This document shows, piece by piece, positions 10,352-48,606 of a stretch of 64,000 nucleotides of DNA. The first letter of the stretch is position 1; every line of letters starts with the position of its first letter. The notes below the pieces were generated by a model, which worked only from the letters and a program-made list of their open reading frames with translations, did not search any database and had not been told where the DNA came from. The position numbers were made by a program, and so were the translations under genes. Source of the DNA: Octopus vulgaris. Lineage: Eukaryota. The DNA lies in NCBI GenBank assembly GCA_951406725.2, contig OX597826.1:2480001-2544000 (forward strand). The letters are read 5' to 3'.

Positions 10352-10563
10352 GAAATTAATCCAAACATGAAAAAACAAAGAGCAAACACAACAACGCAAG
10401 GACATGGAACAAGTATAGTATTATTGGACGCTCAGGAAAGACGGAAAGAAGGCGGGTTTAACGTTTCGAGTAGAGCTCTTCGTCAGAAACATAGGAAAAG
10501 GAAAGATCCAAAGAAGGGAAGACGGAGGAAACAAAATCGCCAACAATACACATGCGGTCACAT
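10352..10563 (-). mobile_element. ~200-bp hammerhead-bearing element in (TA)n (HHR 10456-10490)
   Basis: gttt CTGACGA a gagc-tct-actc GAAA cg TT aaac; homologous end to end with 22578-22778 and 48412-48606. Confidence 0.82.
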
Positions 10564-11079
10564 TTTGAATATATATATATGAATTTTTGTTGCAAGATTC
10601 TTGATGTGAAACTGTATGTTGAAACAAATATTGTTGTATTTAGAGATGGTCATTTTCTTCTCTTGCCAAATAAACACACACACTGTATATTCGTTCTTCA
10701 TTCACTCGTTCATTACTGTTCTTATTATAACGTATGTCCGGAAATCTTTCATCACAACGGTACACATAGAAACACACACACACACACACACACACACACG
10801 CACACACAAACTAACAAAAACTCGCACGCGTGCACACACATACACAGACACATGCACAGCACACGGGCACACACACACACACACACACACACACACTGAT
10901 GCACAAACACACGCGCACGCATGCCTCCGCACACACAAAAGCACACGCGCACGCATACACACTCAGACAGACACACACACACACACGCACACATGCGCGC
11001 GCGCAGCACACACACACATACAAAAACACACTCACACATGCACACACACACATGTCTATATATGTTCATTTATTTTGTT

Positions 11080-11275
11080 CTTTTACTTTTTTCTGCCATT
11101 TGACAGCGGTCATGCTGGAGCACCGCCTTTAATCGTATAACTGCATTCCAGGACTTTTTCTTTGTAAGCATATACTTATTCATCGATTTCTTTTGCTGAA
11201 AGCCTAAGTTACGGTGCAGTAAACACACCAACATCGGTTGTCAAGCGATGGTGACGGGACAAACACACACACACA
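11080..11275 (-). mobile_element. 3' part of SINE family C
   Basis: Reverse complement of atcgcttgacaaccgatgttggtgtgtttac...aaggcggtgctccagcatg. Confidence 0.75.
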
Positions 11276-11369
11276 AATACATACATACACGTATATATAT
11301 ATATATATATATATATATATATATATATATACATATATATATATGTATATATATGCCTGCATATATATG

Positions 11370-11770
11370 TCACGTTGGTTAAAATACCAGTGATTGTAGG
11401 AGCTCTTGGAATGACCAAACAAGGAAGTGAAAATTATTTAAGAAAGATCCCTGGCTTACCACCCATACAGGAGGTGCAAAATTTTGTCTTAACTGCCACT
11501 TCGCACCTATCGAGAAGAGCATTGTTGCTGTGAATTTTCTTTCCCTTTTCCACCTTCATTTTCATTGTTTTTCTTTTTTCTTCTATTTTTTCCTTCTCTT
11601 CCGTTCCCTTTTCTGTATGTCTTTCTTCCTCCTTTTTATCCTATCACATGAATTTGTAAACAAGCAGTCTGGTGTGTATATTTAATTGCCTTCCAATCTA
11701 TACAGCAAGTTTCTTTGCCCTAACTGTAGGGAAGACACTCGGCAAAAATTATAAAGAAAACTGAAAGGAG
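11370..11770 (+). mobile_element. 3' end of R4/Dong-like LINE followed by (TAA)n
   Basis: 11384-11533 translates IPVIVGALGMTKQGSENYLRKIPGLPPIQEVQNFVLTATSHLSRRALLL*, a typical RLE-LINE C-terminus; abuts (TAA)n. Confidence 0.78.
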
Positions 11771-11946
11771 ATAATAATAATAATAATAATAATAATAATA
11801 ATAATAATAATAATAATAATAATAATAATAATGATGATAATAATAATAATAAGGATAATAATAATAGTAATAATAATAATAATAATAATAATAATAATAA
11901 TAATAATAATAATAATAATAATAATAATAATAATAATAATAATAAT
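11771..11946. repeat. (TAA)n microsatellite
   Basis: Direct reading. Confidence 0.97.
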
Positions 11947-12160
11947 GAATGTATATATTCAAATATATAAATATATATATATATATATATATATATGGGT
12001 GTGTGTGATTGTGTATAGAAGAATATATTAATAAAAAGAATTCCAACCTTGTCTGATTTTCACGTTTTATTTACAATCTTATAATGATATATTATAAGAT
12101 AATATATTATAATTGAATAAAATAAAATGAAATAGTAGAATGTTAAATATTCATTCTGAT

Positions 12161-44845: not shown

Positions 44846-45092
44846 ACTTTTCAGAGTCAGCGATTTGTGCTATACTAGTGTATTTAATTCTATTTAATAA
44901 TAATAGTGTATATAATTTAGTAGTGTATTAAGTTCAGAGTCACAGATTTGTGCTATACCAGTGTATTCAAAATAAATAGTAGAAGTGAAATGAATATCGA
45001 TACAGTACGTCAGTAACTGAATCGAAGACTTGTATCATCGAATACCTGTCTGCACAATGCTGCATTAGATGAATCAATGAGTGATTAAAATA

Positions 45093-45663
45093 TTGGGATG
45101 TCAGGAAAGTTCGTGCCGATTTATAGTAGCTTAGCTTTCGACTTATTTTAGAACATGCTTGAGTCTATAAAATAGGATTTGACTACACCTCTATTTAAAG
45201 CAGAGTTTAAGCTGTCTTTTCGCGGAAGAAGGTTTATGTTCCTATAACTTGTGTTAATTCTGTAACCCTCCTTTAAAATGGAAGATGAGAAAATTCCTTT
45301 TCGGCATTTGATGCTTTGGGAACCAGACAAAAATTGCTGCAGCTCGTCTGGGATGTGTTACCCCACTCTCCATATTCACCAGATATTACTCCTTCAGATT
45401 TCCACTTATTGAGGTCTCTGCAGAATAGTCTTAATGGTAAACATTTCAATTCCTTGGATGACGTAAAAAGATACCTTGATGAATTCTTTACCATGAAACC
45501 ACCTCAATTCTGGGAAGAGGGTATTTTCAAGTTAGAGAGGAAAGATGGAGACACATTGTGCAACAAAATGGTTCATATTTGGTTAATTAAAAATGTAATG
45601 ACAAGTATTTATTGACCTTTTTCTTTCATTTAAAAATCAGCACGGACTTTCCAGACAACCCAA
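45093..45663 (+). mobile_element. Internally deleted mariner derivative (~570 bp)
   Basis: TIRs ttgggatgtcaggaaagttcgtgccgattt / aaatcagcacggactttccagacaacccaa; MEDEKIPFRHLML joined to TRQKLLQLVWDVLPHSPYSPDITPSDFHL. Confidence 0.9.
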
Positions 45664-46560
45664 CATTTTTGCAGAAATATATATGAACTTCTACAACTTT
45701 CGATCTAACACAATCTATTTACAAAAACGATTCAAAGACAAAGTTTATACGGCTCCCCACATATTTTACAAACTTTTTTCAATAGAAAGAGACTTCATAT
45801 CGCCCCGGAGTAAGATAAATGTATCATCTGGTGAAATAAGTTACCATACATAACTGTATATTATATTTACCATGTGGAAAGCGAAATAATTTTGCATTAA
45901 AAAAAATAGTTTTAAGCATAAAACGTTGAGGATGATCACAAAGTAAATACCTTATATGATAGGTTTACATAATGTGGGAAACCCTGAGTGTAAACAAAGT
46001 GAAAATAGAGTACACCTTCAAGAAACGAAGAGAGATGGGCAGATAGAGGAAGAAATATATTAAAGAGCGAGTGTCATATTGATTTAGAACGTATGTCTAC
46101 CTAAGTAACTCGAAATTGATTTCCTACATGGCTAAAAAGAGATATATTTAGAATATATATCCGCAGGTACGGAATGATGGTTTTCCAGAAATTGAATTTC
46201 AATAAAAAAAAATGTATGATGAGAGTTGACACACACCAAGACGTTTAATATTAAATTGCTTCTATTTTAGAAGAGATATTACGCAAGTCATCACATTGAA
46301 ACGCAAGCCATCCTAGAATGTCAGGAATTACGTAAAAATGCATTCTACATTATATATTCGATTACTTATGGTATGTGAGAACAAAAATGAAATTATGTAA
46401 TTACCATGCGTTCCTTAACATTTTTATCAATATACATAAAATAATTTGTCTTAGGGCAGTAACGTACATCTCAATTTAGGGAATTTATTTTTGGATTTAG
46501 TAAAGCCAAAATGAAAACATACTTGATGCTGACTGAATAAAAATGCTGTTACTGTGTACG

Positions 46561-46793
46561 TTATTATCATTATTATTGTTATTATTATTATTATTATTGT
46601 TGTTGTTGTTGCTGTTCTTGTTGTTTTGATCATTATTATTAATATTATTATCATCATCATCATCATCATCATTATTATCATCATCATCATCATTATCATC
46701 ATCATCATCATCATCGTCCTCGTCATCATCATCATCATCATCATCATCATCATCATCATCATCATTATTATTATTATTATTATTATTATCATT
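46561..46793. repeat. Compound (ATT/GTT/ATC)n microsatellite
   Basis: Direct reading. Confidence 0.95.
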
Positions 46794-48411
46794 ATATACA
46801 ACTTGGACGGAATTAGTTAGACTGCATGATATATGCATTTTTTCAACAAAGCTTCGTTGATACCTTGTCAAAAGCGTTTGCTTAGCACCTGAGGATTTTT
46901 ATGTAAGAAACCCCAGCGACACCTCCTTTTGTCGTGTTCGTCAGCAACACATCAGTTTACCATATTTTAAGCATTTTCAGGAGATCACAAACAGAAAAAA
47001 AATAAGAAAGTTCCCTAACATTATCACATGTCCAAATTTTTCTTTCTTTTTTTTTTCAAATTATATATTCTTCAGTTTAGCTGAAAGAAGCTATTCGAAA
47101 ATAACCTACACCACCACTGTCACAACCACCACCACCACTATCATTATCACACCCACTCAATTACAACCGGCATCACCACCAGCACCACTATCACCCCTCC
47201 CCCTCCTCCTCCTTCTCATCATCATCATCATCATCATTTAAGCTTTGGCCCTTCACTTAGCTGCATTCCCATCTGTCCCATTTTCTGTTTCCGCCACCAT
47301 CAATAGCATACACCTAATATTGAGTATTTTTGGCTGTTTCCATGTATGCGTATATATGTGTAAGTATCTATTATATATGTGTATGTCTCTATACGCATAA
47401 TTATATGTATTTATATACGCATGTCATGCTTGCCAGTATTAATCTACTACGCCTATTTTCACAAATTTTATTATTTACCAGCGTCAGCATCCACCATGAT
47501 ATATCGTCGCCAGCAATTGACAGTTATTTCATCGACTCCAGTAGGATGAAAAGCAAAGCTGACCTCTTCAGGATTTGAGCTCAACAAGTAGAGAGTCGGA
47601 GAAAATGCGGCGAAGCAGTTTTAGTAAAATCCACTACATATAACCATATGCACATATAAAATACATGTCCATCATGTATCTCTCTCTTTCTCTCTGTATA
47701 TATAAAAATATACATACATACATATATAACTATATATATATAATATGTGATTTTATACAGGTATTAAAGAAACAGAGACAAGAAGTCAAGTTTGTTTCAT
47801 GCTGGGACGTTCCAGTATACGCTTGGCTTTACACTGACAACCGGTTCTTTCCTTAGATTCTAGTTTTCTGCTGCCTTATATAAAATCGGCATAAAAATAG
47901 CAAACTTTAATTCTTTGCAAATACAACAGGCTTGTCATTTACAATTTGTTTTTCCAAAACACCCAGTGGAATTACACAGTAAATGTTATCGCTTCACTGA
48001 GTTCGTAAGTTTTATTTTTAGAAAGGAAGTACCGGGGTAAATAACGATGGATGCATTCATCCGTGCACATATTTTATAGCATAATATCAGAGAAAGAGAG
48101 CATTGTAGATATACAATGCTTTGACAAAGTCTGTCTTCCGATCTGAAGATAATGTATATATATATATATATATATATATATATATATATTTGTATATATA
48201 TATGTATATATATATATATATATATATATATATATATATACATATATATATATATATATATATATACATATACATATATGTATATGTATATGTATATATA
48301 TATATATATATATATATATAATACGTATATATACGTATATGTATATATATATACGTATATATACGTATATATACGTATATATATATATATATATATATAT
48401 ATATATATATA

Positions 48412-48606
48412 TGACCTCGTGTTTACCGTTGTCGATTTTTTCCTCTGTCTTCCCTTCTCTGGATCTTTCCTTCTCCTATGTTTCCGACGAAGAGCTCCGC
48501 TCGAAACGTTAAACACTCCGCCTTTCCTGAGCGTCCAATAATACTATATTTGTTCTACGTCCTCGCGTTGTTGTGTTTTTTTTGTGCTTTCTTGTTTGGA
48601 TTAGCT
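48412..48606 (+). mobile_element. ~200-bp hammerhead-bearing element in (TA)n (HHR 48480-48514, U4C)
   Basis: gttt CCGACGA a gagc-tcc-gctc GAAA cg TT aaac; TA runs on both sides. Confidence 0.82.

What the first reader, a model, noticed from the sequence alone, without database searches (positions are those of the whole stretch)
10352..48606. Discrete ~200-bp hammerhead element family with shared ends, always inside (TA)n
Three independent copies (10352-10563 minus, 22578-22778 minus, 48412-48606 plus) all start near tgacc(g/t)c(g/a)tgt, end at tgtttggatta and carry a central HHR gttt C(T/C)GACGA a gagc-tcc-gctc GAAA cg TT aaac (stem II slightly mutated in the 10456 copy). A shorter relative at 3637-3770 shares acgctcaggaa. 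Shared 5' ends argue against random 5' truncation and for a defined unit: a solo pLTR or a retrozyme-like monomer replicating on its own (inference).
Basis: partly seen in the sequence, partly recalled or inferred. Interest (0 to 1): 0.72.

Follow-up and report, generated by a model that had tools for sequence, protein, structure and literature searches.

The report
Sharply bounded Neptune retrotransposon end-pieces
These ~205-base repeats are the lone end-pieces of a known kind of jumping gene (a Penelope-like element) carrying its usual stripped-down hammerhead motif; the one curious point is that most of the copies sampled start within the same 20 bases, which likely marks where the copied RNA begins.

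Summary
The copies are real, and a fourth lies at 33668-33868. They are solo pseudo-LTRs (pLTRs) of a Neptune-type Penelope-like element (PLE). The same sequence flanks RT-GIY-YIG ORFs in this genome. The genome holds at least 5,047 copies. The 3' end is fixed and runs into (TA)n. The 5' end is a sharp mode, not an absolute limit: 63 of 88 position-ordered copies start within 21 nt, 17 are shorter, 8 longer, and exact 20-mer counts fall from 5,047 to 257 across 25 nt. A self-replicating retrozyme is not supported: 0 of 88 copies are tandem, 5' ends do not cluster at the ribozyme cut, and solo and long copies interleave on a tree. Likely mechanism: nicked (TA)n primes on the element's internal UUUAUAUA, and RT runs off an RNA that starts about 10 nt above TGACC. 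The start site is untested. My prediction that a younger sister family shares the cliff failed (2 of 30). The scan noted this family on another piece of this genome, and fixed starts in other genomes.

The parts
10352..10570 (-). Solo pLTR, family A; starts 9-10 nt upstream of TGACC; (TA)n on both sides
10456..10490 (-). Minimal type-I hammerhead motif; one stem II pair broken in this copy
22577..22778 (-). Solo pLTR, family A; starts 3 nt upstream of TGACC; 3' end runs into (TA)n
22674..22708 (-). Minimal type-I hammerhead motif (core CUGACGA)
33668..33868 (-).
48412..48606 (+). Solo pLTR, family A; starts at TGACC; long (TA)n on both sides
48480..48514 (+). Minimal type-I hammerhead motif (core CCGACGA, stem I GUUU/AAAC, palindromic ACGU helix III; predicted cut between 48510 and 48511)
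3637..3770 (-). 5'-truncated end-piece of sister family B (core CUGUAGA; ends CGTAAACTCTCCC then (TA)n); its own long parent was not searched for
3727..3762 (-). Family B minimal hammerhead motif

Best explanation
The repeats are solo pseudo-LTRs of a Neptune-type Penelope-like retrotransposon, likely pasted by its RT-endonuclease when nicked (TA)n DNA primes reverse transcription on an internal UUUAUAUA of the RNA and the enzyme likely runs off an RNA that begins about 10 nt upstream of TGACC. Shown: the same 205 nt flank RT-GIY-YIG ORFs; the body follows the pLTR through TTTATATA; the 3' junctions fall in one phase with that motif; there is a 20-fold cliff at the 5' end; solo and long copies share the same variants. 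Inferred: target-primed priming by microhomology (about 0.75); the cliff being a transcription start inside the pLTR (about 0.5); final joining at AT/TG microhomologies, which would smear starts over -11..+7. The single minimal hammerhead is predicted not to cleave as a monomer and plays no shown part in making the copies. Identity as a PLE pLTR alone: about 0.95.
For: Parent element: L131 holds pLTR-body-pLTR with hammerheads 5.4 kb apart. [quoted passage not shown] L278 has an 816-aa open frame with weak RVT_1 and GIY-YIG hits, both below Pfam cut-off. Its RT region has 1,984 relatives at E<=1e-30 among 7,986 scored candidates, the best 120 mostly annotated PF00078/PF26215 and some PF01541. 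Priming: 41 of 49 pLTR-body junctions read GGATTAACT-TTATATA-CCGC. Of 74 sampled copies with an intact end, 45 keep one T and 27 keep three T; one keeps two and one five. One and three T are the two registers in phase with (TA)n (7 of 8 and 6 of 6 pairs, read from the sequence). Sister family C ends the same way on its own TTATA. Cliff: 5,047 versus 257 exact 20-mers; 63 of 88 starts in -13..+7 with an upper edge at -11/-10; 19 of 35 in an independent sample found with the 3' 73 nt. The edge sits on TCA(T/T)TC, which resembles Inr/TCT initiators (consensus recalled). D. virilis Penelope starts transcription inside its pLTR from an internal promoter (PMC2377424 passages). Anole Poseidon starts RT internally on its RNA and does not need hammerhead cleavage (PMC11167929).
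Against: My advance prediction failed: in young family C only 2 of 30 copies start at the matching motif, while 24 run on at least 233 nt. Of 8 family-A copies that continue at least 1.5 kb into the body, 5 have 5' pLTRs reaching -214 to about -700, past the supposed start (the -696 alignment is weak). That needs read-through RNA or strand transfer. No cap-derived G: 0 of 12 ends at -7 or beyond are preceded by G. A 5-6 bp hairpin is predicted exactly around the mode. In the anole element RT starts at a site not homologous to the cut DNA, unlike the microhomology inferred here. All RT/EN Pfam hits of the family-A ORFs are below gathering score.
Confidence: 0.6

Rival explanations
1. Same identity, but the cliff is an RT stop or fold-back at the hairpin CGGUCA-UUCAAAAUG-UGACCG while RT copies a long RNA from its 3' pLTR; no transcription start is involved.
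For: The hairpin is predicted at about 0.9 pairing probability in 2 of 3 long copies folded and more weakly in the third, and the commonest starts (-5 to -2) lie in its loop. Palindromes at pLTR 5' ends are described in rotifer PLEs (PMC3846280 passages). Family C lacks the hairpin by eye and lacks the cliff.
Against: The stem is only 5-6 bp. The variant that shortens it (T at +5) is as common among solos as the stronger one (21 versus 23; long copies 1 versus 4). Of 11 body-linked pLTRs that reach +7, 7 pass the hairpin, against 8 of 71 in the unbiased sample.
Confidence: 0.25
2. Solo pLTRs act as a SINE-like non-autonomous family: solos are transcribed from their own promoter into the (TA)n flank and re-mobilised in trans by Neptune proteins.
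For: About 20 solos per long copy. Solos are slightly more alike (94.3%, n=74) than long copies (92.9%, n=25) among pattern-positive rows. One-T junctions would pair perfectly on a solo-derived RNA. An intact 949-aa ORF family C with a similar pLTR could supply protein. pLTRs sufficed for trans mobilisation in a rotifer.
Against: No solo-private column among 103 solo and 52 long or body-linked rows. The label needs 40 changes on the tree against a shuffled mean of 43.6, and 42 of 500 shuffles are as low. The tree is star-like, so power is limited. Both junction types are explained by the body-linked RNA alone.
Confidence: 0.15
3. A retrozyme-like monomer: the unit is cut out by its hammerhead, circularised and re-inserted on its own.
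For: The unit is 200 nt, non-coding, high-copy and carries a type-I hammerhead. Retrozymes are argued to derive from pLTRs (10.64898/2026.07.22.740005). L294 has two near-identical extra pLTRs head-to-tail, separated by (TA)n.
Against: 0 of 88 copies have a same-orientation neighbour within about 700 nt. A single hammerhead cannot define both ends of a circle. Only 2 of 35 copies start within 3 nt of the predicted cut. The motif is the minimal PLE type, and its commonest core is CCGA with a GUU site (71 of 155 rows). The whole unit folds no better than shuffles (z -0.37).
Confidence: 0.04
4. Solos arise after insertion by recombination between the two pLTRs of full-length copies, or by ordinary random 5' truncation plus loss of long copies.
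For: Recombination or deletion was suggested for solo pLTRs in a rotifer. A truncation ladder exists upstream.
Against: Recombination would hand solos the 5' ends of full-length copies, which are spread from +52 to about -700. Random truncation or selection on length cannot give a 20-fold drop in 25 nt.
Confidence: 0.05

Closest known systems
Neptune-clade EN+ Penelope-like elements and their pLTRs (PMC8557442)
   Same: Single RT-then-GIY-YIG ORF with CX2-5CxxC linker, partial tandems, inverted copies, a 3' tail class, (TA)n bias, hammerhead in the pLTR.
   Different: About 95% of copies are pLTR-only with one sharp 5' edge. The 3' UTR is a ~2-kb CA-rich tract. Tails are 104-130 nt rather than 30-40.
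Minimal hammerheads of metazoan PLEs (Cervera and de la Pena 2014, PMC4209133)
   Same: 4-bp helix I, extra nucleotide before G10.1-C11.1, palindromic helix III, mostly single dispersed motifs.
   Different: Helix II is only 4 bp; the commonest core has C at position 4 (family A) or U at position 6 (family B).
Anolis Poseidon PAc internal initiation (Frangieh et al. 2024, PMC11167929)
   Same: Copies end inside the element's RNA, at more than one site, in AT-rich DNA.
   Different: There the RT start is not homologous to the cut DNA; here it coincides with an internal UUUAUAUA that can pair with the (TA)n target.
Non-LTR retrozymes (Cervera and de la Pena 2020, PMC7229834; 10.64898/2026.07.22.740005)
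   Same: Short, non-coding, type-I hammerhead, PLE-related.
   Different: Retrozymes are tandem repeats that yield circular RNA; these copies are single, keep their autonomous parent, and no circle was seen.

Membership tests
EN+ Penelope-like element pLTR | Sequence flanks a single ORF with RT and GIY-YIG as direct repeats | tested here: met
   L131, L134, L294, L296, L278, L280; Pfam hits below cut-off; relatives carry PF00078/PF01541
EN+ Penelope-like element pLTR | 5'-truncated copies, partial tandems, inverted copies, optional 3' tail | tested here: met
   6 of 30 tails, 14 of 30 leader-to-pLTR jumps; 2 of 88 with inverted partner
EN+ Penelope-like element pLTR | Minimal type-I hammerhead in the pLTR | tested here: met
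   Stems 96.8% paired in 8 distinct rows with one two-sided change; features as in PMC4209133; no Rfam hit at gathering
EN+ Penelope-like element pLTR | Promoter and transcription start inside the pLTR | not testable with these tools
   Only assembled contigs were served
Neptune clade | C-terminal EN with CX2-5CxxC linker and CCHH motif (excludes Penelope/Poseidon, Naiad, Chlamys, Hydra) | tested here: met
   CSRSRCNTC linker, IYCIKC..C..Y.GQT..EH..HF after the RT; criteria from PMC8557442 passages
Neptune clade | RT phylogeny placing it with Neptune rather than Nematis | not tested
   No named reference set was on hand; 'Neptune-type' rests on motifs
Non-LTR retrozyme | At least two tandem units each with a hammerhead | tested here: not met
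   0 of 88; rare (TA)n-separated neighbours in L023, L294
Non-LTR retrozyme | Canonical, efficiently cleaving type-I hammerhead | tested here: not met
   Motif is the minimal PLE form with non-consensus core; cleavage itself not assayed
Non-LTR retrozyme | Expressed as circular RNA closed at the cleavage site | tested here: inconclusive
   No such joint in 6 contig sets; contigs show presence, not absence
Non-autonomous (SINE-like) PLE derivative | Own lineage with shared changes absent from the autonomous partner | tested here: not met
   star-like tree limits power

The most novel reading that the evidence does not exclude
Thousands of these solos are a fossil read-out of both ends of the PLE reverse-transcription reaction: priming by base-pairing of nicked (TA)n to an internal UAUAUA, and run-off at a pLTR-internal RNA start just above a conserved strong-context AUG of a tiny upstream ORF. 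RT that reaches this end can jump to the leader near the main start codon, which would explain how pseudo-LTRs and partial tandems are regenerated. Solos keeping the promoter could then spread in trans as a PLE-dependent SINE.
Probability: 0.3. Interest if true: 0.6.

Novelty: new member of a known kind. Interest (0 to 1): 0.33.

Why it matters
The class of object is known, so the element itself is ordinary. The end statistics bear on an open point: how PLEs make pseudo-LTRs ('no obvious mechanism', PMC2377424 passage) and why linker-bearing PLEs favour (TA)n (ascribed to the Zn-finger linker, PMC8557442 passage). This genome offers a simple, testable addition: an internal UAUAUA that pairs with the target, seen in two families. 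It also offers a contrast, one family with a 20-fold cliff and a sister with intact ORFs and no cliff, that makes the start-site and stall models separable with one CAGE library and one in-vitro assay.

Tried and rejected
Rfam at gathering threshold found nothing in the window. RNA evidence: no RNA holder listed. Six contig sets laid on two loci showed no joint closing at the ribozyme site. The back-joints seen match the genomic leader-to-pLTR jump class, one also in the two large runs of unknown kind. Contigs cannot show starts, strand or level, so this is no evidence either way. A monomer/dimer cofold of the hammerhead did not return the active fold and was not used. A first pair count used a mis-registered structure and is void; one search replaces it. 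A search for target-site duplications found 10 of 63 solos with a shared complex 9-mer or longer, only L232 convincing; (TA)n flanks hide them. The -182 start for L084 was an alignment artefact of CA repeats (-58). Family B starts seem to gather near its ATG (14 of 25 reach the block below it, 11 are shorter), but no long family-B reference was held, so I do not count it. Lunse et al. 2017 on dimeric PLE hammerheads was not held. Rejected: shared ends as an assembly artefact, since the same drop in cover appears in contigs of four separate runs (depth is a rough measure).
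Full report
Observation. BLAST of the window adds a fourth at 33668-33868, inside an ~11-kb 98% duplication that spans a 100-N gap and is probably an assembly or haplotype duplicate. The 3637-3770 element belongs to a separate family, here B. Positions below are relative to the T of TGACC (0). The genome is 2.8 Gb in 227 contigs; I guessed an octopus-like host from recall only to choose a literature term.

Ends. The 30 best full-length hits already showed a fixed 3' end and nested 5' extensions of up to 50 nt or more. For an unbiased view I took exact matches to a 29-mer over the hammerhead: 3,417 in the genome, 0 for the control. 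I examined 90 of the 100 listed places, all on contig C1. I left out the last nine and one that lies in L131, then dropped two duplicate rows (L086, L096). Of the 88 left, 63 start in -13..+7, 17 are shorter and 8 longer; end rates are 0.074, 0.0026 and 0.006 per nt. This sample cannot hold copies starting below about +87. A second sample, 35 of the 40 hits of the 3' 73 nt, gave 19 starts in -12..0; four start at +99 or later, two of them within 3 nt of the predicted cut. Genome-wide, a 20-mer at 0..+19 has 5,047 exact matches and one at -25..-6 has 257. (TA)3+ lies downstream of 78 and upstream of 45 of 88 copies.

Parent element. Walking upstream led through a CA-rich tract to L131: pLTR, leader, frameshifted ORF, 3' UTR, pLTR. 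[quoted passage not shown] Pfam hits are weak, but 1,984 of 7,986 scored candidates match the RT region at E<=1e-30. By the criteria in PMC8557442 (passages) this is Neptune-type; Nematis was not excluded by a tree. No family-A locus examined had a complete ORF; the longest open frame was 816 aa, in subfamily A2. A younger family C, about 80-84% alike in protein, has intact 949-aa ORFs in 6.2-kb tandems and a pLTR 72-75% like family A over ~150 nt.

3' end. The body follows the pLTR through TTTATATA in 41 of 49 junctions (50 exact junctions). Of 74 copies with an intact end, 45 keep one T, 27 three, 1 two and 1 five. One and three are the registers in which (TA)n pairs with UUUAUAUA. Family C stops on its own TTATA in 26 of 30 copies; 3 go on into the body and 1 meets a gap. 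I infer target-primed internal initiation helped by microhomology. Among 30 of the 50 junction loci, 8 continue 1.5 kb or more into the body, 6 end after a 104-130-nt tail, 14 jump from the leader (+228 to +481) to a second pLTR beginning at -60..+45, and 2 do otherwise.

5' end. The best reading is run-off at an RNA start near -11/-10, with joining at nearby AT/TG microhomologies. Penelope starts transcription in its pLTR (PMC2377424). Ten of 88 starts lie at -11..-9 and only two between -13 and -20. A motif (TTCAAAATG, TTCAACATG, TTCACCATG, GACGCCATG) is kept at this place in families A, A2, C and B and reads as a strong-context AUG of a 1-4-codon ORF (context consensus recalled). Against this reading: the prediction written failed, since 24 of 30 family-C copies run on 233 nt or more and only 2 start at the motif (three pairs of rows are two ends of one element). 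Five of 8 long-bodied family-A copies have 5' pLTRs far beyond -11. No cap-derived G was seen in 12 ends at -7 or beyond. A short hairpin encloses the mode and remains the main rival.

Own replication. Solo (103) and long or body-linked (52) rows, taken from 200 copies after leaving out the 45 that were short or lacked the 3' end, share all common variants. They interleave on a star-like tree: 40 changes, shuffled mean 43.6, 42 of 500 shuffles as low. No copy of 88 has a same-orientation neighbour. This gives no support for a retrozyme or a separate SINE-like lineage, though the tree has little power.

Hammerhead. Stems I and II are 96.8% paired in 8 distinct rows from four families, with one two-sided change between A and B; 19 of 500 shuffles reach it. 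The form matches the minimal PLE hammerheads, which showed no cleavage as single motifs in vitro (PMC4209133). The commonest family-A core is CCGACGA with a GUU site (71 of 155 rows); that these depart from the consensus is recalled knowledge. Activity was not tested.

Literature seen. PMC11167929 and PMC4209133: parts 1-2 of 4. 10.64898/2026.07.22.740005: part 1 of 5 and passages. PMC8557442, PMC3846280, PMC6765202, PMC2377424, PMC7229834, PMC6962438, PMC8969392: passages only. No supplements were read; those of PMC8557442 list Octopus PLE families and may bear on naming. Seven searches returned no paper describing a fixed-start solo pLTR class or (TA)n-paired priming for Neptune elements; Repbase and most subscription journals are outside the library.

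Verdict. A new family of a known kind, with an unusually clean 5' cliff whose cause is open. The scan had already noted this family elsewhere in this genome and fixed starts in other genomes; those notes are unchecked and add no weight.

Noticed in passing
window 19806-30704 versus 30805-41755: ~11-kb duplication at about 98% identity on either side of a 100-N gap; probably an uncollapsed haplotype or overlap at a contig join.
   Followed up: partly
window 12703-14487 (-), flanked by 11976-12844 and 14434-15309: A divergent PLE ORF (RVT_1 above cut-off, GIY-YIG, CX4CX2C linker; about 31% to family C) framed by an 876-bp inverted repeat.
   Followed up: partly
window 403-2669 (+): Another divergent PLE ORF in two pieces, about 29% to family C.
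   Followed up: partly
window 6190-6240 (-): A further minimal-hammerhead-like motif (core CUGAAGA, longer stem II, same GAAACGUU) next to an (AAT)n run; probably the pLTR of another PLE family.
   Followed up: no
window 23221-23967 and 34320-35111 (+): Mariner-type transposase fragment (Mos1 HTH, E 1.5e-20), present twice through the duplication.
   Followed up: partly
L165, L175, L179 (leader +267) and L170, L173, L177 (leader +253): Leader-to-pLTR jump copies share body-side breakpoints in an AC-rich stretch just above the main start codon while their pLTR-side points vary.
   Followed up: partly
L294, G000:C3 about 157540400-157541300: A full element is followed by two near-identical extra pLTRs, head to tail, each set off by (TA)n; a possible first step towards a tandem array.
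   Followed up: no
L283-L291: Young family C with intact 949-aa ORFs in 6.2-kb tandem arrays and 624 exact core matches; a good source for biochemistry.
   Followed up: partly
L302, L304: Two family-C copies start at the same base inside the hammerhead core (+94 from the ATG), not at the cut site.
   Followed up: no
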